DNA of 64,000 nucleotides from NCBI RefSeq assembly GCF_041886205.1, contig NZ_CP169029.1. One strand, written 5' to 3'. Below are positions 1 through 14,978 of the stretch, in pieces. The notes below the pieces were generated by a model that worked only from the letters and a program-made list of their open reading frames with translations, had not been told where the DNA came from and ran no database searches. This DNA comes from Escherichia coli (GTDB lineage Bacteria; Pseudomonadota; Gammaproteobacteria; Enterobacterales; Enterobacteriaceae). Every line of letters starts with the position of its first letter. Position 1 is the first letter of the stretch. The translations under genes were made by a program, and so were the position numbers.

Positions 1-575
1 CCAAAACAGCACAGCAGCACATCGCCCGGCTGTGCCGCTGACAACGGCACCTGATACAGCCCCGTCGCCTCCAGATTGCGTTTCACCCACGAAGCATGGC
101 CGCCATTGTCACCAAGAAAATCCCCGCCCTGCGACATAGCGATGGAAAGAGCAGGTATTGATTCGTAGTACGCCAGCATTTCAGAAAGGATCGCATCCAG
201 TTTCCTTATCGGAAAATAGGCCTGGTCATAGTTGCGATCCACCCGAAACTGGAACTCGTGATAATCATCATCGAGCTGAATGAAGTATTTACACCCGACC
301 AGTTTTGCCAGGTCGAAACAGGCATTACGGGCGTAAAAAATTGAGCGGCGGTCACAGAAATTATCGGCTTCGTCAAAACGACTGGCGATATCGGCTTTGG
401 AAAACACCAGCACCTGTTCACCAAATTCAGCCATGTACTGATGCCGTGTCTTATCTTCATCATCAACAACGATAAAAATTTTCCCGGTATAGCCAGCACG
501 ACGCAACGTCCGGTAAGTCAGAACTTTGTCCGGTCGCCCGTGAGTCAGAATAAAGGCGCAAAAATCATCACGCAT
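1..575 (-). CDS. Hypothetical protein, N-terminal ~191 aa only (gene continues past window start); weak GT-A-like motif pattern
   Basis: Own translation of the minus strand from ATG at 573-575: MRDDFCAFILTHGRPDKVL...IFIVVDDEDK...YFIQLDDDY. Start overlaps the stop of the upstream ParB-like gene (ATGCGTGA). Not in the ORF track because there is no stop inside the window. Confidence 0.5.
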   Translation of the reverse strand, partial: MRDDFCAFILTHGRPDKVLTYRTLRRAGYTGKIFIVVDDEDKTRHQYMAEFGEQVLVFSKADIASRFDEADNFCDRRSIFYARNACFDLAKLVGCKYFIQLDDDYHEFQFRVDRNYDQAYFPIRKLDAILSEMLAYYESIPALSIAMSQGGDFLGDNGGHASWVKRNLEATGLYQVPLSAAQPGDVLLCCF

Positions 576-1359
576 ATTCCTCCTCCTCACCACCATGCAT
601 GATCTCCACCATGCGCTGCGTCATCCGGACAAATCCATTTTCAATAGCCTGCTGATAATCAATGATCACCAGCGCCGACTCCTCGAAAAAACACTGAATT
701 TCAGCGGGGGCGTGAGCGTAATAGTCCGCAATTCTGCTGAAATTAAACACCGTGTGACGTTCTGCCGCACACAGGAGGAATTTCTCAATATCAGGCTCAA
801 GGGAAGCCAAACGTATCCGGCTGATCAGCTCCTGCGTTTTCGTATCGTCGTACAGTTCACTGATATCCGGTTTACCGCCCGACGGCTCATAAACAGGCGT
901 ATCAATTTTCGTCGTATACGGCTCCTCCTCATTTCCTGTACCGGGCAAAACATCCGTCAACAGTTCATCAATTTCTGTCGGGATGAAGCCTGTCAGGGAG
1001 ACATCAAAATCAGCATTGATTAGGTCCGACAGCTCCATCCGCAACAGATCTTCATCCCAGCCAGCATTCATCGGCAGGCGATTATCTGCCAGGCGGTACG
1101 CCTTTTTCTGCTCATCCGTCAGGCCAGACAGAACAATGACCGGAACAGAATCCATTTTGAGCATTTCAGCCGCCATAACACGACCGTGACCCGCAATAAT
1201 TTCGCCCTTTTCGTCAATCAGCACCGGATTAGTCCAGCCGAATTGCTTAATACTTTCTACCAGTTGTGCCACCTGCTCAGGGCTGTGCGTCCTGGCGTTG
1301 TGCGCATACGGTGACAATTCTTGTAATGGGCGATAGACTATCTTTAATTTCTCGCTCAT
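568..1359 (-). CDS. ParB-like nuclease domain (ParB/Srx fold) protein, 263 aa
   Basis: N-terminal ~100 aa resemble the ParB N-terminal domain (…AGHGRVMAA…); C-terminal 150 aa unrecognised. Good RBS (AAGGATG) before ATG. Position after trkG mirrors the Rac-prophage arrangement. Confidence 0.6.
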   Translation of the reverse strand: MSEKLKIVYRPLQELSPYAHNARTHSPEQVAQLVESIKQFGWTNPVLIDEKGEIIAGHGRVMAAEMLKMDSVPVIVLSGLTDEQKKAYRLADNRLPMNAGWDEDLLRMELSDLINADFDVSLTGFIPTEIDELLTDVLPGTGNEEEPYTTKIDTPVYEPSGGKPDISELYDDTKTQELISRIRLASLEPDIEKFLLCAAERHTVFNFSRIADYYAHAPAEIQCFFEESALVIIDYQQAIENGFVRMTQRMVEIMHGGEEEEYA

Positions 1360-1496
1360 ACATCCTTGCTTTATGAATAAAACGCACCCCAGCAGCCAGT
1401 GCTACTGGGGGCGGAGGTGTTGCTGGTAAAGTTAGGTATTGGATCAATGAGTGAGTCAACATAATATTAAACTCACAATTATAAATCAGCCATATA

Positions 1497-2954
1497 TTAG
1501 GAGCGCCAAAAAAAACCTGAAAACAAAATAATAACAGGATAAATTTCAAGGCGACCAAGAATCATAGCTATGCACATTAAATATTTTGCAATGTCATTAA
1601 GCACTCCGAATGACGATGCAGTAGCCCCAAAACCTAATCCCATATTATTAATACATGCAGCCACTGTTGCAAATGATGTAAGAAAATCATATCCCATACC
1701 ATTTAACACCAGTATAAAAAACACCGTGAAGAGAGTATAAAGAAAAAAGAAACTCCATACAGACCTCATTACACGATCTGTAACTATCTTCCCTCCTACA
1801 TTTACACTCAACAACGCTCTGGGATGAGAAAGCTGATTTATCTCGTGTTTGCTTTGTTTGAAAAGTATAAGAAATCGAAGTGACTTAATTCCACCACAAG
1901 TTGAACCTATACATCCCCCAAAGAAACTTGACAACAGCAAAAACACTATCGTGTGCGTGGGCCAGCTTGCATAATCCTGCATAGCTAAACCATTATCAGT
2001 GAGCATGGAGCTGGCAAGAAAAAACGAATGAATAAAACTTCCATGCAAGTCATACATACCTATATGCCAGACCTGGAAAGAGGTAACAATGATCACCCCT
2101 AAGGCTATTAACAGAAAGAAACGAAGTTCAATATCTCTGATTAAAGGTTTTATCGTTTTCCTGCTAATAACAATATACCAAAGAGTGAAGTTGAAAGCCG
2201 ATAGCAGGGAAAAAGAACCAGCCACCAGCTCAACCAAATAGTTATTAAAATATCCGATACTCTCGCTATGAGTTGAGAAACCACCAAGCGAAACTGTGGA
2301 AATCCCGTGACAAATAGCATCAAACAAAGGCATTCCTGCAAGTCTATAACAGACAATACAAGCAATACCTAATAAAGAATAAGTTATCCACAGTGTCCGT
2401 GACGTATCGGCCAGGCGGGGAGTGAGTTTGTCATCCTTAAATGGCCCCGGCATTTCTGACTGATAAAGCTTTGCACCACCAATACCCAATAATGGCAATA
2501 CAGCAACCGCCAGAACAATAACTCCTAAACCACCTATAAAATTTAACTGTGACCGATAGTACAAATATGCCCGAGGTAATGAACTAACATCATCAATTAC
2601 AGTTGCTCCTGTTGTTGTTATTCCAGAAACCCCTTCAAACAGAGCATCAATGAACGTTAAATTAAGTTCTGAGTCAATCCATAAAGGGAATGCACTAATA
2701 ACAGAAAACAAAATCCAAAACATTACAATTATAATAAACCCATCACGGGTACGTAATTGAATGCCAGATTTCTTAGTTGTATACCACGCTCCGCCACCAA
2801 TGCAAAAAAATATAACGAAAGTTATAAAGAAAACGAACAGGCTTTTTTCTTTATAAAACAATGCTACAACCATTGGTGGCAACATTGAAAGACTATAGAG
2901 CCAAACCAGGAACCCACACATATGAGTAACAACTCTTACATGAGATGTATTCAT
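1497..2954 (-). CDS. trkG: TrkG/TrkH-family potassium uptake membrane protein (prophage-borne)
   Basis: Translation from MNTSHVRVVTHMCGF… gives 485 aa, multi-pass membrane protein with Trk-type motifs; AT-rich codon usage. The ORF track starts 6 codons upstream (2972). Confidence 0.85.
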   Translation of the reverse strand: MNTSHVRVVTHMCGFLVWLYSLSMLPPMVVALFYKEKSLFVFFITFVIFFCIGGGAWYTTKKSGIQLRTRDGFIIIVMFWILFSVISAFPLWIDSELNLTFIDALFEGVSGITTTGATVIDDVSSLPRAYLYYRSQLNFIGGLGVIVLAVAVLPLLGIGGAKLYQSEMPGPFKDDKLTPRLADTSRTLWITYSLLGIACIVCYRLAGMPLFDAICHGISTVSLGGFSTHSESIGYFNNYLVELVAGSFSLLSAFNFTLWYIVISRKTIKPLIRDIELRFFLLIALGVIIVTSFQVWHIGMYDLHGSFIHSFFLASSMLTDNGLAMQDYASWPTHTIVFLLLSSFFGGCIGSTCGGIKSLRFLILFKQSKHEINQLSHPRALLSVNVGGKIVTDRVMRSVWSFFFLYTLFTVFFILVLNGMGYDFLTSFATVAACINNMGLGFGATASSFGVLNDIAKYLMCIAMILGRLEIYPVIILFSGFFWRS

Positions 2955-3091
2955 ATCTAAATATTCTTTCAATTATAACCACCTTGCTGCAATATTATGA
3001 TTATACTGTATAAAATTTAACTCCTCTTAGATCTTACTTCACTGTTCCTTATGAAACAATCATCAAAATGAATCATATTGTAGTTAAGATT

Positions 3092-3556
3092 TTACTTTAA
3101 ACACTGTTCGGTTATGTATTGCTGAGCACCTTCAAGTTGGGCCTGCATCATTACCAGTCGTTCCCGGAGGGTGAAATAATCCCGTTCAGCGGTGTCTGCC
3201 AGTCGGGGGGAGGCTGCATTATCCACGCCGGAGGCGGTGGTGGCTTCACGCACTGACTGACAGACTGCTTTGATGTGCAACCGACGACGACCAGCGGCAA
3301 CATCATCACGCAGAGCATCATTTTCAGCTTTCGCATCAGCTAACTCCTTCGTGTATTTTGCATCGAGCGCAGCAACATCACGCTGACGCATCTGCATGTC
3401 AGTAATTGCCGCGTTCGCCAGCTTCAGTTCTCTGGCATTTTTGTCGCGCTGGGCTTTGTAGGTAATGGCGTTATCACGGTAATGATTAACAGCCCATGAC
3501 AGGCAGACGATGATGCAGATAACCAGAGCGGAGATAATCGCGGTTACTCTGTTCAT
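3092..3556 (-). CDS. Rz i-spanin (lysis protein)
   Basis: [51 protein letters not shown]… closely matches lambda-family Rz. ATG overlaps the endolysin-frame stop. Confidence 0.85.
3151..3336 (-). CDS. Rz1 o-spanin lipoprotein, embedded in Rz in the +1 frame
   Basis: …[42 protein letters not shown]… with lipobox and proline-rich segment typical of Rz1. Exact start uncertain. Confidence 0.75.
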
Positions 3557-3570
3557 TGCTGACCCCACAA

Positions 3571-4050
3571 ACAGATTTCACGCTCAATCTCACGACGAGT
3601 CATGAGACCTTTCCATTGCTTACCGCCAGCATATGTCCAGCGACGTAGCTGATCACATGCGCCTTTGATATCGCCCTAGTTTATTTTGCGAAGAAGCGTC
3701 GATGTTCTGAAATTGCCAGCACCCACGTTGTAAACGAATGAGTAAAGAGCGCCGCGCATTGTTTCCGGTATATCGACTTTGATGTACGGGTTAATTTGTC
3801 TGGCGACCGTGGCAAGGTCTTTATTCAGGAGGGCTTTGCATTCTGCTTTGGTATACGTTTTACCGGGAATGATGTCTTTTCCTGTATGCCCGTGACATAC
3901 AGTCCATACACCAACAATATCTTTGTATGGTATGTAGCTGACACCTTCCAGACCATCGTTACCACTTGGGCCAGTAATTAACACTGATGCTATAGCAATT
4001 GCTCCGCCACCAATAGCAGCAGCAACGGCTTTTCGTAATGATGGAGGCAT
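3571..4050 (-). pseudogene. SAR-type endolysin (phage-21/DLP12 RrrD-like lysozyme) interrupted by an in-frame amber codon
   Basis: ORF ends at TAG (3676-3678) after 124 aa. The same frame continues for 34 more codons ([40 protein letters not shown]) to a TGA overlapping the Rz start. Looks like a CAG-to-TAG change. Confidence 0.7.
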
Positions 4051-4265
4051 TATTCACCTCTCGCAGCCTTGCGCTTATCTTCTTTAATCTTGAAATAAAG
4101 GTTTGTCAGGTACGTCAGCAGGCCAAATACCAGGCTACCCAGCACACCTATTGCTGCCCACTGTGAGGGCGTGACTTTATCGAGCAGCTGTAAAAACCAG
4201 TAACCGGCACTACCTGCTGAGGTGCCATAGGCGACACCCGTTGTTAACTTATCCATGGATTTCAT
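4050..4265 (-). CDS. Class II holin / pinholin (S21-like)
   Basis: [71 protein letters not shown]; two closely spaced Met starts as in phage-21 S. ORF-track start at 4310 is probably too far upstream. Confidence 0.8.
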
Positions 4266-4385
4266 AACCCCACCTCGCAGACAAAGCGGGTGTAAATTGA
4301 GGGAATACAACGTATCGCAAAAAAGCAGAAACGTAACAGACTCGGAGTCAGTGAATAACTCAGGTATTGGGTTATCAGCTAATAT

Positions 4386-4426
4386 CGAGACTCAAAAAAT
4401 GGAAAAACCCGCTCGACGGCGGGTTT
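4386..4426 (-). terminator. Candidate rho-independent terminator on the minus strand just upstream of the holin (possible tR'-like element)
   Basis: Minus-strand hairpin AAACCCGCCGTCGAGCGGGTTT followed by TTCCATTTTTTGAG. Confidence 0.4.
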
Positions 4427-4852
4427 AAGCTGTGTGACGAAGTAACCACTCTTAACAGCATAACCAATTTTTTACGTACGTAAACCACTAAATGATATTT
4501 GCGAGAATGCTACCGAGTATTGAAAACACCACTACAAATACATAAGCAAATCTCAACAAATAACCAACAAATAATTTCCAGCGTTATTTTTAGCTGGTTT
4601 AAATTGAACCTTCAAATTATAGAGCACTTATAAATAACAGCCATTAATATAAATTGGCTAATAGATTTATTTTTATTCAGCCAAGAGCCATGAATAGGAT
4701 TCGATAGAAAAAGTTCAGATAAAAATAGAGATCTACTTCACAAATCAAATGAGAAACCAAAACTTACATCTTGAAATAATCACATTGATTAGATGAATAT
4801 TTATCGCGCAGTGACATCATTTTTTAATAATAGTTCAAAAAAAGGGCTCACG

Positions 4853-5935
4853 ATGAAAAAATTAACAGTGGCAATTTCTGCTGTAGCTGCATCAGTACTG
4901 ATGGCGATGTCTGCTCAGGCAGCTGAAATTTATAATAAAGACAGTAACAAGCTGGATCTGTACGGGAAAGTTAATGCTAAGCACTACTTCTCCTCTAATG
5001 ATGCAGATGATGGTGATACTACTTATGCCCGTCTTGGCTTCAAAGGTGAAACCCAAATCAACGATCAACTGACTGGTTTCGGTCAGTGGGAATATGAATT
5101 CAAAGGCAACCGCGCTGAATCTCAAGGTTCCTCCAAAGATAAAACCCGTCTTGCCTTCGCTGGCCTGAAATTCGGTGACTACGGCTCCATCGATTATGGC
5201 CGTAACTACGGTGTAGCATACGATATTGGTGCATGGACCGACGTTCTGCCAGAATTCGGTGGCGATACCTGGACCCAAACAGATGTATTCATGACTGGTC
5301 GCACCACAGGTGTTGCAACTTATCGTAACAATGACTTCTTTGGTCTGGTTGATGGTCTGAACTTTGCTGCTCAGTATCAGGGTAAAAATGACCGCACTGA
5401 CGTAACTGAAGCTAATGGTGATGGTTTCGGTTTCTCCACTACTTATGAGTATGAAGGATTCGGTGTAGGTGCAACCTATGCTAAATCTGACCGCACTAAT
5501 AATCAGGTTATCTACGGTAACAACAGCCTGAATGCATCTGGTCAAAATGCTGAAGTATGGGCAGCTGGTCTGAAATATGATGCGAACAACATCTATCTGG
5601 CTACCACCTATTCTGAAACCCAGAACATGACTGTTTTTGGTAATAACCATATTGCCAACAAAGCACAAAACTTCGAAGTAGTTGCACAATATCAGTTCGA
5701 CTTCGGTCTGCGTCCGTCCGTTGCTTACCTGCAATCTAAAGGAAAAGACTTGGGTGCGTGGGGTGATCAGGACCTGGTTGAATATATTGATGTAGGTGCA
5801 ACCTATTACTTCAACAAAAATATGTCCACTTTTGTTGATTACAAAATCAACCTGATTGATAAGAGCGATTTCACGAAAGCATCTGGCGTTGCTACCGATG
5901 ATATCGTTGCTGTAGGTATGGTTTACCAGTTCTAA
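4853..5935 (+). CDS. nmpC: Outer-membrane general porin of the OmpC/OmpF/NmpC (phage Lc) family; appears intact
   Basis: [23 protein letters not shown] signal peptide, C-terminal …VGMVYQF, typical porin composition. Sits between Q and S on the opposite strand, as in DLP12 and PA-2. Confidence 0.8.
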
Positions 5936-6072
5936 TTTGATTACTAAAAGATATGTTGCGGGAGGCTTTGCCTCCCCAACATATAAGTGGCTCCCTCAAG
6001 CCACTTCCTTTAGGAGCACAACCTTGCTTCTAACTATATAAACCTTCTGTTATATATTACCCTTTATTTTTG

Positions 6073-6100
6073 GGGGCGTCTCAACGCCCCATTTTTAATA
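6073..6100 (+). terminator. Rho-independent terminator downstream of the porin gene
   Basis: GGGGCGTCTCAACGCCCC hairpin followed by ATTTTTAATAATTTTT. A second long hairpin (ATGTTGCGGGAGGCTTTGCCTCCCCAACAT) lies at 5957-5988. Confidence 0.5.
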
Positions 6101-6123
6101 ATTTTTAGTAAACAATTGGCATA

Positions 6124-6507
6124 TTAATTAGAGTTATTAACAACGATATCCATCTCTAACCGGATATCTAATGCCATTAACATCCCTTCAATTATGCCCT
6201 CAGCCTTCTGTAACCTTTTCCCGATATAACCATCAGAGCAGCAATGCTTACCTGCCAGTGACATGAATGTCATACCGACTACATAATAATCTACTAATAA
6301 ATCGTGCAAATCGCTGTTGTTCTTTTTCAGACGGGCCATGCACCCGCAAATAATCATCGCGTCATCGTCACAACATTGCGGGCGAGATTTTACTTTTGAA
6401 GTAATTAATCCCTTAAAACCGGCGGCAATGGACGACCAGGTCACATCTTCATGATTATTAGCCGCCCACGCTCCCCAACGCTCAAGAACCATCTGAATAT
6501 CACGCAT
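6124..6507 (-). CDS. quuD: Q-type late-gene antiterminator (DLP12 QuuD-like)
   Basis: [34 protein letters not shown]…[16 protein letters not shown]…; the ORF track extends 5 codons upstream. Confidence 0.8.
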
Positions 6508-6592
6508 CAACTTACTCCACAAAAATCAGACCAGAACGCCAATTACAAGCAAAAATCAACGAAACAGTATTAGTTGATTGTTATCTCTGACT

Positions 6593-6730
6593 TCATACTC
6601 CTGCTCCTGTCAGGGTTTTGGCGTAATTCTTCAGTATTCGGTAATCGGTCAAAACAGAACCGGGGAAACGATATAAGCGCAGACGCCCCCAGCGGTGGCG
6701 AAGACGTTCTGCCATATAAAACTCAAACAT
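6593..6730 (-). CDS. ylcG: Small nin-region ORF (YlcG-like, 45 aa)
   Basis: Own translation [48 protein letters not shown] overlaps the rusA stop (TGATG). Below the ORF-track size cut-off. Confidence 0.5.
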   Translation of the reverse strand: MFEFYMAERLRHRWGRLRLYRFPGSVLTDYRILKNYAKTLTGAGV

Positions 6731-7092
6731 CATTCATTCCCCATTTCGGTGATGGTCAGTTCCAGCCTCCCACCTTTGGTAACAGGCATCTTCACAACGC
6801 GGTAATCAACGACCTGAGCATCATCCAGCCAGAAACCTGCTTTAGTGAGTGCGTCAAAAGCGGCTTTTTGCAGATTATCCAGGTCACGGCGACGGCGATC
6901 CGGCATGTGGCACTCAATGCGGATTTTCACAGGCATAGCCAAGCCGATATCCAGCATTGCGTTTTTAATGATTCGGGCGACGTTATCGCGGTATGCCTGC
7001 CCCTCTGCGCTGACGTGCGTGCGCCCGCGATTATGGCGGTAATAGCGATTATTGCTCGGAGGCCAGGGTAATGTGATGCTGTAGGTATTCAC
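6730..7092 (-). CDS. rusA: RusA Holliday-junction resolvase
   Basis: [108 protein letters not shown]… 120 aa. Confidence 0.9.
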
Positions 7093-7379
7093 GCCTTAAT
7101 AACCCCCTCTTTCAGCCAGATAACCTGTGTTCTCGCCATACCTTCCAGCGCGCATTCTTTTGCATATGCAGCATCGACAAAATGTGTGCGGCGGTCGATT
7201 TCGTCGTGGCAGGCAGAACATGCAATGGTGGCAATCAGGTCTGGCGGTTTGGTACCGGTGCCGCACAATCCAGTCAGCCGGATATGTGCCAGTACAGACG
7301 TTTCAGGGTTACCATTACATACGCCAGGGATTCTTACCTGGCATTCCCGACTACGCGCTGCTTTTCTCAAATCAGCCAT
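7089..7379 (-). CDS. ybcO: Nin-region protein YbcO-like (96 aa)
   Basis: [67 protein letters not shown]…; ORF track starts further upstream at 7418. Confidence 0.75.
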
Positions 7380-7542
7380 GATTCCTCCTTGCTGCCAGTC
7401 GCAACCATTTTTTATCAACCAGGCTGGCGGTATATCCGAGCAGTGTTGGTATTTCGGAAGGTTTCAGCTCCGGTTTACGCTTACGACGATTTGGTACTCT
7501 GTAGATGTGTCCGTTCATGACACGAATAAGCGGTGTAGCCAT
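7372..7542 (-). CDS. ninE: NinE-like protein (56 aa)
   Basis: Own translation [56 protein letters not shown]; start overlaps ybcN stop, stop overlaps ybcO start. Confidence 0.75.
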   Translation of the reverse strand: MATPLIRVMNGHIYRVPNRRKRKPELKPSEIPTLLGYTASLVDKKWLRLAARRNHG

Positions 7543-7951
7543 TACGCCTCCTGCTTGTCACGGAGCTGCTGGAACTCGCAGCTCTGCGGAATAGTCAGAT
7601 GGCAGCCAATATTCACCGCCCAGGCTTCAACCTTACACAGGAAGACATACATCTCTCCGGTATCAAGATCGGAGGTATGGCGTAACGACTGGATAGTGGT
7701 GATATCACCGGTTACGACATCAACCAGGTCTTTGGTTTCATAACCGAGATATGTGTGTTTGAGAGCATCTTTTACCCAAGCTGGAGTGGCGAACGTTTTA
7801 CCCCTGCTGATGAGGTATTCACTGATTTCGCTGTACCACATGTGGCTGAGTGCATTCTGGGAAAGACTGCGTTTCTCACGCCACGGTTTAAGCACCATGA
7901 ACCGCCCCGGGAATCCTGGAGACTAAACTTCCTGAGAAAGAGGTAAACAGG

Positions 7952-8274
7952 ATGACTAAAAATACTCGTTTTTCCCCCGAAGTCCGTCAACGGGCAGTCC
8001 GTATGGTTCTGGAAAGTCAGAGCGAATATGACTCACAATGGGCGACAATTTGTTCCATTGCTCCAAAGATTGGCTGTACGCCGGAGACTCTGCGTGTCTG
8101 GGTTCGCCAGCATGAGCGGGATACCGGGGGCGGTGATGGAGGGCTCACCACCGCTGAACGTCAGCGTCTGAAAGAGCTGGAACGTGAAAATCGTGAACTG
8201 CGCCGCAGTAACGATATCCTTCGCCAGGCTTCCGCTTATTTTGCGAAGGCGGAGTTCGACCGCCTCTGGAAAAA

Positions 8275-8278
<4 letters not shown>
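7952..8278 (+). CDS. IS3-family transposase OrfA (HTH + leucine zipper)
   Basis: [60 protein letters not shown]…. Confidence 0.85.
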
Positions 8279-9166
<888 letters not shown>

Positions 9167-9270
9167 GTTCACAGATAAAACACTCTCCAGGAAACCCGGG
9201 GCGGTTCACCATGCGAAAGCATTTGCCCTCCTCCAGATAAGGCTGGATCTGCCGACCGATAGCGGTGAAG

Positions 9271-9558
9271 TTACCGCGATGTAATTTTATGCCGTCTTGT
9301 GGGAGGTTCACGCTTCACCTCCGCAGAGGCCAAACGCTGGATGCAAAAAATCGCAGGTGCATTTCTGCATCTGTGAATGGAGAAGATAGGTTGGTTTGTA
9401 TGTGCGCATAACCCCAAATCTTCATACGTTACGGTATCAAGGTAATAATCACTATTTACCTTTAGCCATTCAGTAATAAGCCTTCTCTGGCGGTTTAATG
9501 AATCACCAGACATCTGACCTGGTGATGAAAATCGCATATATGCTATGGCTTTTTTCAT
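9271..9558 (-). pseudogene. 5' fragment of a serine recombinase / resolvase gene (DLP12 YbcK-like)
   Basis: First ~50 aa (MKKAIAYMRFSSPGQMSGDSLNRQRRLITEWL…) look like a resolvase catalytic N-terminus; the rest is non-homologous and overlaps the ybcN start, implying a deletion junction. Confidence 0.5.
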
Positions 9559-9813
9559 GGTGACACCTGCTAAAGTATGCTTTTATAAACCTTAGTGGTG
9601 AGATATGATTTTTGTTTAATTTTTATTTAAAAAGACAATTAAGGTCACATTATCTTGAATATACAACAATAATCGCATTGCAATTTTCTTACACCATAAT
9701 CCTGAAAGCACAAAAGAATGAATAAAAACTAAAGACATTAACAAAAAGCATAAAACGAGGCCCATATAAATATACGAACCTCCATATTTTAGTCGTTTAA
9801 AAACAAATTATTT

Positions 9814-10146
9814 TTAATGTGGTGTGCTTCGTGACAATAAATTAATAACCAACACACCGGCACAAATCAACATCATGCCTATAATGGCTGGCAGGTCCAA
9901 CCGTTGGCCGAAAAATCCCCATGATAGTAAGCTAATCAGGACAATACCGACTCCTGACCAGATAGCATAAGCAATCCCTGTAGGAATATAAGCCAGCGTC
10001 TGAGCTAATAACCAGAATGATGCACAATAACAAATAATTGTACCAACAGATGGCCATAACCGTGTAAAACCTTCTGAAAACTTCATTAAGGTTGTACCAA
10101 TGACCTCTGCAAGTATTGCACCACCAAGATAAATATAAGGATTCAT
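9814..10146 (-). CDS. emrE: Small multidrug resistance efflux protein EmrE (110 aa)
   Basis: MNPYIYLGGAILAEVIGTTLMKFSEGFTRLWPSVGTIICYCASFWLLAQTLAYIPTGIAYAIWSGVGIVLISLLSWGFFGQRLDLPAIIGMMLICAGVLVINLLSRSTPH; the ORF track starts 18 codons upstream. Confidence 0.9.
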   Translation of the reverse strand: MNPYIYLGGAILAEVIGTTLMKFSEGFTRLWPSVGTIICYCASFWLLAQTLAYIPTGIAYAIWSGVGIVLISLLSWGFFGQRLDLPAIIGMMLICAGVLVINLLSRSTPH

Positions 10147-10213
10147 AGCATATTCTTTCCTGTTCAAACTGGAGAGAATTGTACTACAGTTTGAACTCAA
10201 CTCACCTGTTTCA

Positions 10214-10516
10214 TCATTGTGTACCCATTGATGTTCTTTTATATACCCTCAATACCCGTTTCATCGCGGCACTCTGGCGACACTCCTTAAAAATCAAATT
10301 CGTGCTCACCTTTCCTTCCCATTCTTCTCTGGTAGCGAACCGATAATACACCGTTCGCCAGACCTTACCATCAACGACCAGGATTCCTGCCCGCGCCATT
10401 TTAGCCGCAGCCTGATTTATGCTGGTTACCGTTGCGCCTGTTACCGCGGCAACGTCCTGCGCACAGAATTTCTTATGAGTCCCCAGGTAATGAATAATTG
10501 CCTCTTTGCCCGTCAT
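10214..10516 (-). CDS. ren: Lambda Ren-like protein
   Basis: MTGKEAIIHYLGTHKKFCAQDVAAVTGATVTSINQAAAKMARAGILVVDGKVWRTVYYRFATREEWEGKVSTNLIFKECRQSAAMKRVL…. Confidence 0.8.
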   Translation of the reverse strand: MTGKEAIIHYLGTHKKFCAQDVAAVTGATVTSINQAAAKMARAGILVVDGKVWRTVYYRFATREEWEGKVSTNLIFKECRQSAAMKRVLRVYKRTSMGTQ

Positions 10517-10901
10517 ACCCTTGCTCCTTTCAGCCCAAACTTAGCTTTGATTTCTGCGATCTTCGCCAGAGCCTGTGCACGATTTAGAGGTCTACCGCCC
10601 ATGACAGGAAGTTGTTTTACTGGTTCAGGTATAGCCTCACCACGGTTAATTCGCGCGGTCATACAGGCCAGTTCATCGGCAGCCTTGCGCCGTAATTCCG
10701 CGTCAGTCAACGCATTGGCCCGCATGTTCTGGTAGCCAGGCTCGCCGGGAAAGTTGCCAGTAACTGGCTGAACACACCATTGATGATCTGCGCTACCAGC
10801 TGTACCTGCGGCTTTTCGTCGTACTGTTCCGGCATGTTATTGGCGATCCGACGCATCTGCTCACGGTCAAAGTTAACCATCTGTGCGGCGATGTTTTTCA
10901 T
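10513..10901 (-). pseudogene. P: Replication protein P with an internal out-of-frame deletion
   Basis: N-terminal fragment MKNIAAQMVNFDREQMRRIANNMPEQYDEKPQVQ…ATFPASLA (10707-10901) and C-terminal fragment …YQNMRANALTDAELRRKAADEL…AKFGLKGARV (10513-10725) lie in different frames, joined near 10730. Confidence 0.75.
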
Positions 10902-11425
10902 AAATCCACCCCATAAATCCAGTCAGTGTTTGTCAGGTCGAGTTTTGATTTTCCGGCTGTCACGCCAGCCTGTTGCTTGTTACGGTTGATTTCGAGTTGG
11001 GTCCACTTGTCGCGGAGTTTGGCCGGACATAGCACGTTACCGGACCAGAAGTTGTCCTGGCATGCCCAGCGGAACAGCACGCACATGTCGCGGTGGTTAC
11101 GTCCGTCACGTTCACGCATCAGGCGGATATCGTTAGCCCACCCTGCAAAATTCGGTTTTCTGGCTGATGGCGCGATGGTCTTCACCATGTCAAACATCCA
11201 CTCTGCGGCGGTCAGGTCTTCTGCTGTCCCCCACTTGCTGCCGCTCTGAATTGCAGCATCCGGTTTCACCACAGGAAGATCGTTTTCTGGCTGGTCAGAG
11301 GATTCGTCAGAATTCTCGGACGAAAAAGGTTTTATATTGTCTTTTGTTAGTTTGTCTTTTGTGTTTACCTGATTCGGGTAAACGCCTTTAATCGAACAAG
11401 ACCCGTTAGTAACTATCGACATCAT
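10898..11425 (-). pseudogene. O: C-terminal remnant of replication initiator O; N-terminal domain and ori are absent
   Basis: …KDNIKPFSSENSDESSDQPENDLPVVKPDAAIQSGSKWGTAEDLTAAEWMFDMVKTIAPSARKPNFAGWANDIRLMRERDGRNHRDMCVLFRWACQDNFWSGNVL… matches the lambda O C-terminal domain. Upstream sequence is from the left arm (ea22 3' end), so the gene is truncated at a deletion junction. Confidence 0.75.
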
Positions 11426-11716
11426 TACGCATCGCTATTACGGGGTTGGAGGTCAATGGGTTCAGGATGCAGGTGAGTATCTGCATATGATGTCTGACGC
11501 TGGCATTCGCATCAAAGGAGAGTGAGATCGGTTTTGTAAAAGATAACGCTTGTGAAAATGCTGAATTTCGCGTCGTCTTCACAGCGATGCCAGAGTCTGT
11601 AGTGTCAGATGATGACCGTACTCAAACATCGGGTTGAGTATTATCTTACTGTTTCTTTACATAAACATTGCTGATACCGTTTAGCTGAAACGACATACAT
11701 TGCAAGGAGTTTATAA

Positions 11717-11998
11717 ATGAGTATCAATGAGTTAGAGTCTGAGCAAAAAGATTGGGCGTTATCAATGTTGTGCAGATCCGGTGTCTTGTCTCCATGCAGA
11801 CATCACGAAGGTGTTTATGTAGATGAAGGTATAGATATAGAGTCGGCATACAAATATTCCATGAAGGTTTATAAGTCTAATGAAGACAAATCCCCATTCT
11901 GCAATGTGCGAGAAATGACTGATACCGTGCAAAATTATTATCACGAGTACGGTGGAAACGATACTTGCCCTCTCTGTACAAAACATATAGATGATTAA
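11717..11998 (+). CDS. ea8.5: Lambda Ea8.5 protein (93 aa)
   Basis: MSINELESEQKDWALSMLCRSGVLSPCRHHEGVYVDEGIDIESAYKYSMKVYKSNEDKSPFCNVREMTDTVQNYYHEYGGNDTCPLCTKHIDD; correct spacing relative to xis/int. Confidence 0.85.
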   Translation: MSINELESEQKDWALSMLCRSGVLSPCRHHEGVYVDEGIDIESAYKYSMKVYKSNEDKSPFCNVREMTDTVQNYYHEYGGNDTCPLCTKHIDD

Positions 11999-12293
11999 AC
12001 CCAATATTACATAACAATCCTCGCACTCGCGGGGATTTATTTTATCTGAACTCGCTACGGCGGGTTTTGTTTTATGGAGATGATAAATGCACTTCCGAGT
12101 CACAGGAGAATGGAATGGAGAGCCATTCAACAGAGTTATCGAAGCGGAGAACATCAACGACTGCTACGACCACTGGATGATATGGGCGCAGATAGCACAT
12201 GCAGACATAACCAATATTCGAATTGAAGAACTGAAAGAACACCAAGCCGCCTGATGGCGGTTTTTTCTTGCGTGTAATTGCGGAGACTTTGCG

Positions 12294-12512
12294 ATGTACT
12301 TGACACTTCAGGAGTGGAACGCTCGCCAGCGACGCCCAAGAAGCCTTGAAACAGTTCGTCGATGGGTGCGCGAATGCAAGATATTCCCTCCTCCGGTTAA
12401 GGATGGAAGAGAATATCTGTTCCACGAATCAGCGGTAAAGGTTGACTTAAATCGACCAGTAACAGGTAGCCTTTTGAAGAGGATCAGAAATGGGAAGAAG
12501 GCGAAGTCATGA
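12294..12512 (+). CDS. xis: Excisionase Xis (72 aa)
   Basis: MYLTLQEWNARQRRPRSLETVRRWVRECKIFPPPVKDGREYLFHESAVKVDLNRPVTGSLLKRIRNGKKAKS; overlaps the int start as in lambda. Confidence 0.95.
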   Translation: MYLTLQEWNARQRRPRSLETVRRWVRECKIFPPPVKDGREYLFHESAVKVDLNRPVTGSLLKRIRNGKKAKS

Positions 12513-13560
12513 GCGCCGGGATTTACCCCCTAACCTTTATATAAGAAACAATGGATATTACTGCTACAGGGACCCAAGGACGGGTAAAGAGTTTGGATTA
12601 GGCAGAGACAGGCGAATCGCAATCACTGAAGCCATACAGGCCAACATTGAGTTATTTTCAGGACACAAACACAAGCCTCTGACAGCGAGAATCAACAGTG
12701 ATAATTCCGTTACGTTACATTCATGGCTTGATCGCTACGAAAAAATCCTGGCCAGCAGAGGAATCAAGCAGAAGACACTCATAAATTACATGAGCAAAAT
12801 TAAAGCAATAAGGAGGGGGCTGCCTGATGCTCCACTTGAAGACATCACCACAAAAGAAATTGCGGCAATGCTCAATGGATACATAGACGAGGGCAAGGCG
12901 GCGTCAGCCAACTTAATCAGATCAACACTGAGCGATGCATTCCGAGAGGCAATAGCTGAAGGCCATATAACAACAAACCCTGTCGCTGCCACTCGCGCAG
13001 CAAAATCAGAGGTAAGGAGATCAAGACTTACGGCTGACGAATACCTGAAAATTTATCAAGCAGCAGAATCATCACCATGTTGGCTCAGACTTGCAATGGA
13101 ACTGGCTGTTGTTACCGGGCAACGAGTTGGTGATTTATGCGAAATGAAGTGGTCTGATATCGTAGATGGATATCTTTATGTCGAGCAAAGCAAAACAGGC
13201 GTAAAAATTGCCATCCCAACAACATTGCATGTTGATGCTCTCGGGATATCAATGAAGGAAACACTTGATAAATGCAAAGAGATTCTTGGCGGAGAAACCA
13301 TAATTGCATCTACTCGTCGTGAACCGCTTTCATCCGGCACAGTATCAAGGTATTTTATGCGCGCACGAAAAGCATCAGGTCTTTCCTTCGAAGGGGATCC
13401 GCCTACCTTTCACGAGTTGCGCAGTTTGTCTGCAAGACTCTATGAGAAGCAGATAAGCGATAAGTTTGCTCAACATCTTCTCGGGCATAAGTCGGACACC
13501 ATGGCATCACAGTATCGTGATGACAGAGGCAGGGAGTGGGACAAAATTGAAATCAAATAA
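12490..13560 (+). CDS. int: Lambda-type tyrosine integrase Int (356 aa), apparently intact
   Basis: MGRRRSHERRDLPPNLYIRNNGYYCYRDPRTGKEFGLGRDRRIAITEAIQANIELFSGHKHKPL… with C-terminal …HELRSLSARLYEKQISDKFAQHLLGHKSDTMASQYRDDRGREWDKIEIK. Confidence 0.95.
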   Translation: MGRRRSHERRDLPPNLYIRNNGYYCYRDPRTGKEFGLGRDRRIAITEAIQANIELFSGHKHKPLTARINSDNSVTLHSWLDRYEKILASRGIKQKTLINYMSKIKAIRRGLPDAPLEDITTKEIAAMLNGYIDEGKAASANLIRSTLSDAFREAIAEGHITTNPVAATRAAKSEVRRSRLTADEYLKIYQAAESSPCWLRLAMELAVVTGQRVGDLCEMKWSDIVDGYLYVEQSKTGVKIAIPTTLHVDALGISMKETLDKCKEILGGETIIASTRREPLSSGTVSRYFMRARKASGLSFEGDPPTFHELRSLSARLYEKQISDKFAQHLLGHKSDTMASQYRDDRGREWDKIEIK

Positions 13561-13694: not shown

Positions 13695-14978
13695 GTGAAT
13701 ACATTTTCAGTTTCCCGTCTGGCGCTGGCATTGGCTTTTGGCGTGACGCTGACCGCCTGTAGCTCAACCCCGCCCGATCAACGTCCTTCTGATCAAACCG
13801 CGCCTGGTACCTCTTCTCGCCCGATTCTGTCGGCAAAAGAAGCGCAGAATTTCGATGCTCAACACTATTTTGCATCCCTGACACCAGGTGCTGCAGCGTG
13901 GAATCCTTCCCCGATTACCCTGCCTGCGCAACCTGACTTTGTTGTCGGCCCGGCGGGCACTCAAGGTGTAACGCATACCACGATTCAGGCGGCGGTAGAT
14001 GCGGCAATTATCAAGCGTACCAACAAGCGCCAGTATATTGCCGTGATGCCTGGTGAGTATCAGGGAACGGTATATGTCCCTGCCGCTCCGGGTGGAATTA
14101 CTCTGTACGGTACAGGTGAAAAACCGATTGATGTGAAGATTGGGCTTTCCCTTGATGGTGGCATGAGCCCTGCCGACTGGCGTCACGACGTCAACCCGCG
14201 CGGCAAATATATGCCAGGTAAACCAGCGTGGTATATGTACGATAGCTGCCAGAGCAAACGCAGCGACAGTATCGGTGTTCTCTGCTCTGCGGTCTTCTGG
14301 TCACAAAACAATGGCCTGCAACTGCAAAATCTGACCATCGAAAACACGCTGGGCGATAGCGTAGATGCAGGTAACCATCCGGCGGTGGCACTGCGTACTG
14401 ATGGTGACCAGGTACAGATTAACAACGTTAACATTCTCGGTCGTCAGAACACCTTCTTTGTCACCAACAGCGGTGTGCAGAACCGTCTGGAAACGAATCG
14501 TCAGCCGCGTACGCTGGTGACCAACAGCTACATTGAAGGGGATGTGGATATCGTTTCTGGTCGCGGCGCAGTGGTGTTCGATAACACCGAATTCCGCGTG
14601 GTGAACTCACGTACTCAGCAAGAAGCGTATGTGTTTGCACCGGCTACGCTGTCCAACATTTACTACGGTTTCCTCGCCGTAAACAGCCGTTTCAATGCTT
14701 TCGGTGATGGTGTGGCGCAACTGGGCCGCTCGCTGGATGTTGATGCCAATACCAACGGTCAGGTGGTGATCCGTGATAGCGCCATCAACGAAGGTTTTAA
14801 CACGGCTAAACCGTGGGCCGATGCGGTGATCTCTAATCGTCCGTTTGCGGGTAATACCGGCAGCGTAGATGATAACGACGAAATACAGCGCAATCTGAAT
14901 GACACTAACTACAACCGCATGTGGGAATACAATAACCGCGGCGTGGGCAGCAAAGTGGTTGCAGAGGCGAAGAAGTAA
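13695..14978 (+). CDS. ybhC: Outer-membrane lipoprotein YbhC (pectinesterase-like acyl-CoA thioesterase family)
   Basis: Lipoprotein signal (…LTLTACSS), 427 aa. Confidence 0.85.
   Translation: MNTFSVSRLALALAFGVTLTACSSTPPDQRPSDQTAPGTSSRPILSAKEAQNFDAQHYFASLTPGAAAWNPSPITLPAQPDFVVGPAGTQGVTHTTIQAAVDAAIIKRTNKRQYIAVMPGEYQGTVYVPAAPGGITLYGTGEKPIDVKIGLSLDGGMSPADWRHDVNPRGKYMPGKPAWYMYDSCQSKRSDSIGVLCSAVFWSQNNGLQLQNLTIENTLGDSVDAGNHPAVALRTDGDQVQINNVNILGRQNTFFVTNSGVQNRLETNRQPRTLVTNSYIEGDVDIVSGRGAVVFDNTEFRVVNSRTQQEAYVFAPATLSNIYYGFLAVNSRFNAFGDGVAQLGRSLDVDANTNGQVVIRDSAINEGFNTAKPWADAVISNRPFAGNTGSVDDNDEIQRNLNDTNYNRMWEYNNRGVGSKVVAEAKK

What the first reader, a model, noticed from the sequence alone, without database searches (positions are those of the whole stretch)
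1..1359. Translationally coupled ParB-like nuclease-domain gene and unknown gene next to a phage-borne K+ transporter
Downstream of the lysis cassette and trkG, a 263-aa protein with a ParB/Srx-fold N-terminus and an unrecognised C-terminal half overlaps (ATGCGTGA) the start of a second gene. The second product has alternating beta-strand and acidic motifs (…IFIVVDDEDK…, …QLDDDY) that look like a nucleotide-sugar transferase-like (GT-A) fold. ParB-like domains in phages are often nucleic-acid-acting, so a ParB-like plus transferase-like pair could be a DNA modification or anti-defence module rather than simple cargo. The second gene is cut off by the window edge.
Basis: partly seen in the sequence, partly recalled or inferred. 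Interest (0 to 1): 0.55.

Follow-up and report, generated by a model that had tools for sequence, protein, structure and literature searches.

The report
Broken phage ParB-partnered sugar-transferase module
The two genes are the remains of a two-protein phage module, a ParB-type switch protein with a dedicated partner domain plus a TAGT-family sugar transferase. The module is conserved in viruses of bacteria and archaea and probably puts sugars on phage DNA, but in this window the transferase gene is cut in half by an old deletion and is dead.

Summary
A 263-aa ParB-like ORF (568-1359, minus strand) overlaps the next ORF by ATGCGTGA. That second ORF is a GT-A glycosyltransferase of the TAGT family (Pfam PF20691, E 1e-34 on the intact homologue).

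The second gene is not simply cut by the window edge. TAGT homology stops at window base 76 (codon 166 of 310). From there the ORF continues in frame into the 3' end of a lambda K-like tail gene. A deletion removed the terminase, head and most tail genes, so the catalytic NED motif is lost and this copy is inert.

The intact pair is a tight, widespread module:
- Orthologous pairs with overlapping stop and start occur in phages of E. coli, Lactobacillus, Nocardia and Porphyromonas and in the archaeal virus HHTV-2. Vibrio jumbo phages carry the partner as a stand-alone gene.
- The "unrecognised" C-terminal half of YnaK is a Pfam-less, acidic helical domain (1395 clusters). It is always found next to this TAGT clade, either alone (about 130 aa) or fused to ParB.
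- AlphaFold predicts that this domain docks on TAGT (pTM 0.83).
- Complete carrier phages lack any hydroxymethyl-pyrimidine pathway.

Best reading: a ParB-gated DNA glycosyltransferase expressed at the head of the packaging operon. The acceptor is unknown.

The parts
568..1359 (-). ynaK: intact 263-aa ORF. It consists of a ParB/Srx NTP-binding domain, a linker and the TAGT-partner domain.
   Evidence: ORF. It is identical to YnaK of intact Rac-type prophages. phrog_620 E 6.5e-90. Pfam ParB_N.
955..1359 (-). YnaK residues 1-135: ParB-CTPase-type nucleotide-binding domain plus a helical extension. There is no HTH DNA-binding domain.
   Evidence: PDB profile hits to Noc/Spo0J/ParB, E 1e-12 to 1e-9, over residues 3-134. 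The same module occurs in ParB-methyltransferase fusions (phrog_498 E 1e-50; PADLOC MTase_II E 2.6e-38). Motif residues N21, R23, G57, R60, D92 and N93 are conserved in 32-37 of 37 non-redundant orthologues.
571..933 (-). YnaK residues 143-263: the conserved Y-T-x-K-I-x-x-P-x-Y-E-P motif, an acidic helical 'TAGT-partner' domain and an acidic tail.
568..575 (-). ATGCGTGA: the TAGT start codon overlaps the ynaK stop codon. GGAGG repeats lie immediately upstream.
   Evidence: Sequence. The same abutting or overlapping arrangement (-12 to +10 nt) is seen in 76 of 76 scored pairs.
76..575 (-). Remnant of the TAGT-family GT-A glycosyltransferase gene, codons 1-166 of 310. It keeps R14 and D102-D104. 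It lacks N187-E-D189 and the R258/H260-H261/W265 block.
   Evidence: Alignment to the intact gene L002:6926-7858. Pfam TAGT E 1.3e-34 on the intact protein. Motif conservation.
1..77 (-). 3' part of a lambda K-like (C40 peptidase) tail gene, fused in frame to the TAGT remnant. This is the deletion junction, with AA microhomology at 77-76.
   Evidence: 100% identity to lambda K 14597-14673. Junction mapping. Annotation of the chimeric 258-aa CDS and the downstream I/J remnants.
1387..1410 (-). Terminator-like hairpin (10 pairs, then a T-rich tail) between the trkG stop and the ynaK start.
   Evidence: Consensus scan only.
1497..2972 (-). trkG: a low-GC (0.34-0.41) potassium-transporter moron inserted between the lysis genes and the pair. 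Context only.
   Evidence: ORF. Annotation. Composition.

Best explanation
What is here (shown). The window starts inside a decayed lambdoid prophage. ynaK is intact. The next gene is the first 166 codons of a TAGT-family GT-A glycosyltransferase. A deletion that removed the terminase, head and most tail genes joined it in frame to the 3' end of tail gene K. This copy lacks half of the catalytic domain and is non-functional.

What the intact pair is (shown by comparative analysis). It is a self-contained two-gene module. The catalytic subunit is a distinct TAGT clade. Its obligate neighbour carries a small acidic helical domain, the C-terminal half of YnaK. That domain occurs either alone (about 130 aa) or, in temperate-phage late operons, fused behind a ParB-CTPase-type nucleotide-binding domain that has no DNA-binding HTH.

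How it most likely works (inferred).
1. The partner domain binds the basic TAGT subunit. The invariant A-L-V-I-I-D segment is predicted to become an interface strand.
2. The ParB domain acts as an NTP-gated dimerising switch or clamp. It recruits, activates or retains the transferase on DNA, as ParB-like activators do for phage thymine dioxygenases and as the same ParB module does when fused covalently to DNA methyltransferases.
3. The enzyme transfers a sugar from a nucleotide-activated donor onto phage DNA late in infection, just before packaging, which alters how host nucleases see that DNA.

The acceptor group is unknown, because carrier phages lack any hydroxymethyl-pyrimidine pathway.
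For: Identity and truncation:
- ORFs and overlap; junction; annotated context.
- The intact context is trkG-ynaK-TAGT-TerS-TerL-portal.

TAGT assignment:
- Pfam PF20691 E 1.3e-34, covering model positions 4-205 of 205.
- phrog_842 E 8.6e-104.
- GT-A enzymes are the top Foldseek PDB hits.
- R14, DDD102-104 and N187-E-D189 are invariant or nearly so (35-37 of 37) in the non-redundant set. They match the R...DDD...ED motif of DNA-modifying phage GT-A enzymes (bioRxiv 10.1101/2023.12.21.572611).

Module conservation:
- Both proteins are 32-49% identical end to end in phages of Lactobacillus, Nocardia and Haloarcula. The Porphyromonas pair is more distant: 28% identity for the transferase, with a ParB-like gene overlapping its start.
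- 80 of 80 TAGT-centred IMG/VR loci have the partner directly upstream.
- Of 80 partner-centred loci, 73 have TAGT adjacent and 6 have it about 900 nt downstream; 1 is cut by the contig end.
- In those six loci the inserted gene is a histidine-phosphatase + cytidylyl/adenylyl-transferase fusion, i.e. a likely maker of an activated donor.
- Stand-alone partner + TAGT pairs sit in DNA-metabolism neighbourhoods.
- A natural TAGT-ParB-partner fusion is followed by a second TAGT.
- The distant T4-like TAGT of phage Aeh1 has no partner.

Interaction:
- The linked model has pTM 0.83, above the roughly 0.66 ceiling expected if only the TAGT body were placed.
- Mean pLDDT of partner residues 81-110 rises from 82/54/62 to 94/89/90 (10-residue blocks).
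- A new strand appears at LVII.
- Charges are complementary: partner pI about 4.5, TAGT pI about 9.

DNA link:
- The ParB module is nearly the same as in ParB-DNA-methyltransferase fusions.
- TerL lies within 2 kb downstream in at least 25 of 37 non-redundant ParB-fused loci.
- A family member, T2/T6 beta-glucosyl-HMC-alpha-glucosyltransferase, modifies DNA (PMC13216743).
- ParB-like proteins lacking a DNA-binding domain activate phage T-dioxygenases on dsDNA (PMC13229309).
Against: - No experiment on any member of this clade was found in the held literature.
- Every DNA glycosyltransferase reaction found in the papers read here uses a hydroxylated pyrimidine or an already attached sugar as acceptor. 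Phage c5, phi jlb1 and an intact Rac prophage have no annotated thymidylate-synthase-like hydroxymethylase, TET/JBP dioxygenase or DNA polymerase. A DNA acceptor would therefore have to be of a new kind.
- The TAGT family also includes GREB1, a protein O-GlcNAc transferase (PMC7968844).
- Both halves of the partner are acidic and there is no DNA-binding domain, so DNA contact rests entirely on TAGT.
- The complex prediction is a single-chain linker trick. No PAE or coordinates were available and no negative control was run.
- In the 5mYOX system, mutating the ParB NTP-motif residues did not abolish activation. An NTP-gated mechanism is therefore not established even for the closest analogue.
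- The copy in this window is truncated, so nothing about function can be tested on it.
Confidence: 0.55

Rival explanations
1. The module glycosylates a protein, not DNA. The target could be a packaging or virion protein or a host factor, as with GREB1 (O-GlcNAc on the oestrogen receptor) or, from my own knowledge, mycobacteriophage capsid glycosylation. The ParB-like partner would then act only as an adaptor or regulator.
For: - TAGT-domain GREB1 is a protein glycosyltransferase (PMC7968844).
- The top structural PDB hits include the peptide S-glycosyltransferases ThuS/SunS and collagen ColGalT1.
- The ParB-fused form sits at the head of the packaging/structural operon.
- No hydroxymethyl-base pathway is present in carrier phages.
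Against: - The two proteins keep 38-49% identity between an archaeal halovirus and phages of three bacterial phyla, whose structural and host proteins are unrelated. This argues for a universal acceptor.
- Stand-alone partner + TAGT pairs lie among helicase, exonuclease and methyltransferase genes, far from structural genes.
- The ParB module is shared with DNA methyltransferase fusions.
- The one candidate self-acceptor, the S/T in the YEPxG motif, is not conserved.
Confidence: 0.18
2. It is a classical TAGT. It extends or decorates 5-hydroxymethyl-pyrimidines (or a first sugar) made by other phage enzymes, as in T2/T6 and the 5mYOX-linked pathways.
For: - Family membership.
- The PHROG label 'beta-glucosyl-HMC-alpha-glucosyltransferase'.
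- The variant with two TAGT domains in tandem suggests sequential sugar addition.
- ParB genes are a known associate of 5mYOX clusters.
Against: - The complete genomes of c5 (31.8 kb), phi jlb1 (38 kb) and an intact Rac prophage have no annotated hydroxymethylase, dioxygenase or own DNA polymerase, and c5 has no unassigned ORF longer than 208 aa.
- None of the 8-kb neighbourhoods inspected shows PF12851 or a ThyS-like gene.
- This clade is only about 23-25% identical to the T4-like TAGTs, and those lack the partner.
Confidence: 0.1
3. The ParB-like protein is a nuclease or packaging accessory for the adjacent terminase, comparable to the HNH proteins of cos phages. Alternatively it is a partition protein, and the transferase is an unrelated neighbour.
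For: - Its position is directly upstream of TerS/TerL.
- There is a weak match to an archaeal ParB-domain nuclease (5k5d, E 4.6e-4).
- PHROG names include 'partition nuclease'.
Against: - The C-terminal domain of the protein is found only with this TAGT clade. It stays with TAGT even without the ParB domain and away from terminase genes.
- The genes overlap in 76 of 76 pairs.
- For partition: there is no HTH, no ParA neighbour in the inspected loci, and the TIGR00180 score of 38.5 is below the cut-off of 58.45.
Confidence: 0.07
4. The pair is a prophage-encoded defence or exclusion function that acts in the lysogen, for example by marking incoming DNA.
For: - Pyle et al. raise the idea that prophage GTs could be anti-phage.
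- The pair sits next to morons (trkG, a porin) in this prophage.
Against: - No PADLOC family matches TAGT. The only YnaK hit comes through the ParB part of a methyltransferase model.
- The module also occurs in a Cro-bearing phage with no annotated integrase and in jumbo phages.
- It lies in the late operon, downstream of a terminator-like hairpin.
Confidence: 0.05

Closest known systems
T2/T6 beta-glucosyl-HMC-alpha-glucosyltransferase, founding phage member of Pfam TAGT (PF20691)
   Same: Same Pfam family (E 1e-34). Same GT-A fold with a DXD motif. Phage-encoded. Uses a nucleotide-sugar donor.
   Different: - The T-even enzyme adds a second glucose to glucosyl-5hmC in a genome built with hmC.
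- It has no partner protein.
- T4-like TAGTs are only about 23-25% identical to this clade and have no partner-domain ORF nearby.
- Carrier phages of this clade have no hmC pathway.
ParB-dependent phage thymine dioxygenases (5mYOX176/ParB176; PMC13229309)
   Same: A DNA-modifying enzyme is encoded next to a ParB-like protein. That protein has an N-terminal nucleotide-binding domain, an unstructured linker and a C-terminal domain but no DNA-binding domain, and the ParB NTP motifs are conserved.
   Different: The enzyme there is an Fe/2OG dioxygenase, not a glycosyltransferase. Whether its ParB C-terminal domain is homologous to the YnaK partner domain could not be tested, because no sequences are held. 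The YnaK partner domain also exists without any ParB domain.
Phage ParB-DNA methyltransferase fusions (phrog_498; ParB_N + N6_N4_Mtase)
   Same: The ParB module is nearly identical (YnaK residues 3-141, E 1e-50). These fusions sit in the same place ahead of the terminase genes. One locus carries both in tandem.
   Different: The catalytic domain is a covalently fused methyltransferase. Here the ParB module is fused to an adaptor domain, and the enzyme is a separate, translationally coupled polypeptide.
5mYOX/C5-MT-associated phage GT-A DNA glycosyltransferases and trypanosome base-J glucosyltransferase (Pyle et al., bioRxiv 10.1101/2023.12.21.572611)
   Same: GT-A fold and the R...DDD...ED active-site pattern.
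   Different: Those enzymes are clustered with enzymes that create 5hmC or 5hmU. This clade is not. That paper sets aside the roughly 65% of GT contigs without such neighbours as not obviously DNA-modifying.
Canonical ParB/Noc/Spo0J partition proteins
   Same: The fold and motifs of the N-terminal CTPase domain.
   Different: No HTH, no canonical dimerisation domain and no ParA or parS. The score is below the TIGR00180 cut-off.
GREB1 (eukaryotic TAGT-domain protein)
   Same: It has a TAGT domain, and RefSeq names the E. coli protein 'GREB1-related protein'.
   Different: GREB1 is a large eukaryotic protein that O-GlcNAcylates a transcription factor. It is not a phage two-gene module.

Membership tests
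TAGT (Pfam PF20691) GT-A glycosyltransferases | Significant full-length match to the family profile | tested here: met
   The intact orthologue L002:6926-7858 matches at E 1.3e-34, model positions 4-205 of 205. phrog_842 E 8.6e-104.
TAGT (Pfam PF20691) GT-A glycosyltransferases | GT-A fold with the R / DXD / ED catalytic residues | tested here: met
   The AF2 model hits GT-A enzymes at the top (ThuS, K4CP, GpgS, SpsA; E 2e-5 to 1e-3). R14, D102-D104, N187 and D189 are invariant in 37 of 37, and E188 in 35 of 37.
TAGT (Pfam PF20691) GT-A glycosyltransferases | Complete catalytic domain present in the copy inside this window | tested here: not met
   The window copy ends at codon 166. It lacks N187-E-D189 and everything downstream, and is fused to gene K.
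TAGT (Pfam PF20691) GT-A glycosyltransferases | Genomic association with TET/JBP dioxygenase or hydroxymethyl-pyrimidine synthesis (the 'TET-associated' context) | tested here: not met
   None is annotated in the complete genomes of phages c5 and phi jlb1 or in an intact Rac prophage. None is seen in the neighbourhoods.
TAGT (Pfam PF20691) GT-A glycosyltransferases | Demonstrated sugar transfer to DNA | not testable with these tools
   This needs LC-MS of DNA or an enzyme assay.
ParB-CTPase / ParB-Srx fold proteins | ParB_N domain with Box I-III nucleotide-binding motifs | tested here: met
   Pfam ParB_N E 2.5e-6. PDB profile hits E 1e-12. N21 37/37, R23 32/37, G57 37/37, R60 35/37, D92 35/37, N93 36/37.
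Canonical partition ParB (TIGR00180) | Score above the curated cut-off; HTH DNA-binding domain; ParA partner | tested here: not met
   38.5 bits against a cut-off of 58.45. There is no match beyond residue 134 to any ParB structure. No ParA is present in the annotated neighbourhoods.
ParB-like activators of DNA-modifying enzymes (as for 5mYOX176) | NBD - linker - C-terminal domain with no DNA-binding domain, encoded next to the enzyme | tested here: met
   Architecture. Adjacency.
ParB-like activators of DNA-modifying enzymes (as for 5mYOX176) | Enzyme activity depends on the ParB-like partner; C-terminal domain homologous to that of ParB176 | not tested
   No sequences of ParB176 are held. 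Dependence needs experiments.

The most novel reading that the evidence does not exclude
The YnaK-type partner plus this TAGT clade is an autonomous two-protein system that attaches a sugar, or another nucleotide-activated group, to DNA without a hydroxymethyl-pyrimidine precursor. The target would be a canonical base, the backbone or a DNA end. The reaction would be gated by a ParB-type NTP switch and timed to packaging. That would be a new chemical class of DNA modification, shared by temperate phages of at least four bacterial phyla and by archaeal tailed viruses. It would also explain the 'solitary TAGT' genes noted in 288 of 753 TAGT-encoding phage genomes (PMC13216743).
Probability: 0.25. 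Interest if true: 0.85.

Novelty: new variant of a known kind. Interest (0 to 1): 0.55.

Why it matters
Phage DNA glycosylation is a major counter-defence. In the papers read here, every described pathway needs a hydroxylated pyrimidine first.

Two recent papers leave a large class of phage GT-A/TAGT genes unexplained. One notes solitary TAGT homologues (PMC13216743). The other sets aside the roughly 65% of GT contigs that have no 5mYOX or ThyS neighbour (bioRxiv 10.1101/2023.12.21.572611).

This analysis shows three things about one such clade:
- It comes with an obligate, previously unannotated partner domain.
- That domain is often fused to a ParB NTP-switch module.
- The module is conserved from E. 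coli Rac-type prophages to a haloarchaeal virus.

The question is directly testable, because intact copies exist in 889 of 5426 complete E. coli genomes and in cultured Lactobacillus phages.

For this particular window the practical message is annotation. The locus is a deletion scar, and the 'GREB1-related protein' here is a chimeric pseudogene.

Tried and rejected
1. A conserved S/T in the linker motif YEP[ST]G as a self-glycosylation site. Rejected: most orthologues have K at that position.
2. K-12 ydaY as the remnant of the transferase. Rejected: K-12 ydaY is a tail-region gene, found between the tail tube and tape measure genes in intact Rac. K-12 keeps only ynaK codons 1-85.
4. A PDB sequence search for TAGT gave no hit. 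NCBIfam gave no model hit for TAGT, so the source of the RefSeq name 'GREB1-related' could not be traced.
5. PADLOC found no defence family for TAGT.
6. A natural fusion of the partner domain directly to its cognate TAGT was not seen among the top 150 representatives. The only fusion found (P0238) has an extra TAGT at the N-terminus.
7. Literature on the specific pair, on ynaK, or on DNA modification in HHTV-2: nothing relevant. Iyer et al. 2013 (NAR 41:7635), which defined TAGT and proposed ParB roles in DNA modification, is not held. It may already mention ParB-TAGT neighbourhoods.
8. Sequences of the 5mYOX-associated ParBs, for a direct comparison, are not available.
Full report
**Observation**

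On the minus strand of window 1-1359 there is a 263-aa ORF (568..1359). A second ORF has its ATG (575..573) overlapping the TGA of the first (570..568), which gives the 8-nt string ATGCGTGA. GGAGG repeats lie just upstream. The translation of the second ORF contains the quoted IFIVVDDEDK and QLDDDY.

The window is near-identical (99.96%) to E. coli strain wlxctx60 (NZ_AP045833.1), apart from one extra IS3-family insertion.

Comparison with intact relatives shows that the second gene is not merely cut by the window edge.
- The intact gene encodes 310 aa (L002:6926-7858, strain 135).
- Window and intact gene are identical up to window base 76, then diverge completely.
- Window bases 77..1 are 100% identical to lambda gene K, 14597-14673.
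- The ORF therefore consists of TAGT codons 1-166 fused in frame to the last ~92 codons of a K-like tail gene. In the matching genome it is annotated as a 258-aa 'GREB1-related protein', followed by remnants of I, J and lom.
- In an intact Rac-type prophage the pair is followed by TerS, TerL, portal, head and tail genes. The window carries a deletion scar of roughly 16 kb.
- E. coli K-12 has a different scar at the same place. Only ynaK codons 1-85 survive, joined to the tail gene ydaY.
- Of 5426 complete E. coli genomes, 1579 have part of the pair and 889 have at least 80% of it.

**Identity of the two proteins**

*YnaK.*
- Residues 1-135 are a ParB/Srx nucleotide-binding domain: Pfam ParB_N, and a profile against PDB Noc/Spo0J/ParB at E 1e-12 to 1e-9 over residues 3-134.
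- It scores below the cut-off of the partition-ParB model and has no HTH.
- The same module, over residues 3-141, matches the N-terminus of phage ParB-DNA-methyltransferase fusions very strongly (phrog_498 E 1e-50; PADLOC MTase_II E 2.6e-38).

*The intact second protein.*
- It is a TAGT-family enzyme (PF20691, E 1.3e-34, whole model). It also matches phrog_842 'beta-glucosyl-HMC-alpha-glucosyltransferase'.
- An AlphaFold model hits GT-A glycosyltransferases at the top of the PDB list.
- R14, D102-D104 and N187-E-D189 are invariant or nearly so (35-37 of 37) in the non-redundant orthologues. So is a clade-specific R258/H260-H261/W265 block.
- The window copy keeps only the first two of these motifs.

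**The pair is a conserved module**

- tblastn of the transferase against 50,697 phage records finds 38-47% identical proteins in Lactobacillus delbrueckii and L. gasseri phages, Nocardia phage NTR1, Vibrio jumbo phages and the haloarchaeal virus HHTV-2. It finds a 28% identical protein in Porphyromonas phages.
- In c5, phi jlb1, NTR1, HHTV-2 and the Porphyromonas phage, the gene directly upstream, overlapping it, is a ParB-like protein. For the first four, that protein aligns with YnaK over its whole length, including the 'unrecognised' C-terminal half (32-42% identity). The Porphyromonas protein matches the partner-domain profile more weakly (40 bits).
- In IMG/VR, all 80 best TAGT loci have this partner ORF immediately upstream on the same strand. 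In 76 scored pairs the partner ORF ends within -12 to +10 nt of the start of the TAGT match.
- The reciprocal search, with the C-terminal domain as query, gives 73 of 80 loci with TAGT adjacent and one cut by the contig end. In six, TAGT lies about 900 nt downstream.
- In those six the inserted, overlapping gene is a histidine-phosphatase + cytidylyl/adenylyl-transferase fusion: His_Phos_1 E 5e-37, CTP_transf_like E 5e-14, TIGR00125 above its cut-off. This is the kind of enzyme that makes a nucleotide-activated donor.

**The C-terminal half of YnaK is an independent domain**

- A profile of residues 143-263 finds 2298 proteins in the 5.8-billion-sequence set. The best hits are stand-alone proteins of about 130 aa with no Pfam annotation.
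- In the 50%-identity library it finds 1395 clusters, and the domain is always at the C-terminus.
- Stand-alone copies also sit directly upstream of a TAGT gene, in DNA-metabolism neighbourhoods rather than next to terminase. Examples: next to an SNF2-helicase-methyltransferase fusion (L090), and with a helicase following TAGT in Vibrio jumbo phages.
- One protein (P0238) is a TAGT-ParB-partner fusion followed by a second TAGT, TerL and portal. Another has two ParB domains.
- The distant T4-like TAGT of Aeromonas phage Aeh1 has no such neighbour. The partner is therefore specific to this clade.

**Predicted interaction**

- Modelled alone, the partner domain is a five-helix bundle. It has pTM 0.57, and the invariant A-L-V-I-I-D segment is coil with low confidence after residue 90.
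- I then modelled it linked by a 25-residue Gly/Ser linker to its cognate TAGT, using a naturally paired alignment of 30 phage pairs. The chain has pTM 0.83 and mean pLDDT 83. Mean pLDDT of partner residues 81-110 rises to 89-94 per 10-residue block, and LVII becomes a beta-strand.
- TAGT is only 285 of the 431 residues. A pTM of 0.83 therefore cannot be reached unless the partner is placed confidently against it.
- The charges are complementary: partner pI about 4.5 in both halves, TAGT pI about 9.
- This is a prediction, not proof. I had no PAE, no coordinates and no negative control.

**Position**

In the ParB-fused form the pair sits at the head of the packaging operon. A large terminase subunit lies within 2 kb downstream in at least 25 of 37 non-redundant loci: 15 by phmmer and 10 of 10 further loci tested with PHROGs. 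ParB-methyltransferase fusions occupy the same place, and one locus has both in tandem.

**Mechanism**

*Shown:* the family assignments, the obligate pairing, the domain architecture, the motif conservation and the truncation of the local copy.

*Inferred:*
- The partner domain is the TAGT-binding adaptor.
- The ParB domain is an NTP-gated switch or clamp that brings or keeps the basic transferase on DNA.
- The sugar goes onto phage DNA shortly before packaging.

The inference rests on three analogies. The T2/T6 TAGT glucosylates DNA (PMC13216743). ParB-like proteins without a DNA-binding domain activate phage thymine dioxygenases on dsDNA (PMC13229309). The same ParB module is fused to DNA methyltransferases.

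The inference also rests on an argument from breadth. A module this conserved between an archaeal virus and phages of several bacterial phyla should act on a universal substrate.

*The main difficulty:* carrier phages lack the usual acceptor chemistry. c5, phi jlb1 and an intact Rac prophage have no annotated hydroxymethylase, TET/JBP enzyme or DNA polymerase, and c5 has no unassigned ORF over 208 aa. Either the acceptor is something new in DNA, or the target is not DNA. GREB1, a TAGT-domain protein, glycosylates a protein (PMC7968844).

**Comparison with known systems and novelty**

The TAGT family, ParB-like partners of DNA-modifying enzymes and ParB-methyltransferase fusions are all known. 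ParB and terminase genes have been listed among the neighbours of phage GT-A genes. I found no description in the held literature of three things:
- the dedicated partner domain;
- its obligate coupling to one TAGT clade;
- its stand-alone and ParB-fused forms.

Iyer et al. 2013 could not be read, so prior mention there cannot be excluded. I rate the module a new variant of a known kind. I rate the copy in this window a dead remnant of it.

**Verdict**

- The local locus is ordinary prophage decay.
- The module it points to is of real interest because it is widespread, unexplained and easy to test.

Noticed in passing
window 568-1359; L001 6142-6399 and 6463-6933; L002 6142-6399: RefSeq/PGAP annotates the intact 263-aa ynaK ORF as a 258-nt 'incomplete' ynaK pseudogene. 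In L001 it adds a separate 156-aa hypothetical protein. The likely reason is that the truncated 87-aa K-12 YnaK serves as the reference. The ORF is uninterrupted in the window and in intact Rac prophages.
   Followed up: partly
window ~7900-9206: An IS3-family element of about 1.3 kb (OrfA 108 aa at 7952-8278, OrfB in two pieces, AL1L frameshift pseudoknot annotated in matching records) interrupts the prophage ybcN-like gene. It is absent from the otherwise 99.96% identical genome NZ_AP045833.1, so the window comes from a close relative of that strain, not from that record.
   Followed up: partly
window 1497-2972 and 1387-1410 (-): trkG is a low-GC island (0.34-0.41, against about 0.5 on either side). 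It has its own terminator-like hairpin 28 nt upstream of the ynaK start. It looks like a moron inserted between the lysis genes and the late-operon module.
   Followed up: partly
window 1-13560: The prophage is a heavily decayed mosaic next to ybhC, the lambda attachment region. It runs int (12490-13560, +), xis, ea8.5, a partial O, ren, emrE (9814-10200, -), ybcN::IS3, ninE, ybcO, rusA, quuD, a porin (4793-5935, +), essD-rrrD-rzpD, trkG, ynaK and TAGT'::K'. DLP12-type early and lysis genes are thus joined to a Rac-type trkG-ynaK segment.
   Followed up: partly
window 3092-3568 (-) and 3151-3336 (-): The Rz-like ORF (158 aa) contains an embedded out-of-frame 61-aa ORF with a lipoprotein signal (…LPLVVVGC…). 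This is the usual Rz/Rz1 nested spanin pair.
   Followed up: no
L133 3314-4300, L149 3344-4312 (also L134, L136, L152, L173): In six IMG/VR loci a His_Phos_1 + cytidylyl/adenylyl-transferase fusion gene is inserted between the ParB-partner gene and TAGT, overlapping both. Their TAGTs have EYEDDY and GRMNDDVN in place of QLDDDY and GRINEDVN. This suggests a dedicated, different activated donor, with ADP-heptose-like or CDP-polyol-like donors as candidates.
   Followed up: partly
P0238 (L096 214-1818; JGI 3300072015 contig): A 534-aa protein combines a TAGT domain, a ParB-like domain and the partner domain in one chain. It is followed by a second, overlapping TAGT gene, TerL and portal. This would be consistent with sequential addition of two sugars by a tethered pair of transferases.
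   Followed up: partly
L048 5604-8114: One viral contig carries two tandem copies of the stand-alone partner + TAGT pair.
   Followed up: no
L004 (Nocardia phage NTR1) 3-3408: In NTR1 the ParB-partner and TAGT genes are followed directly by the large terminase, with no annotated small terminase in between.
   Followed up: no
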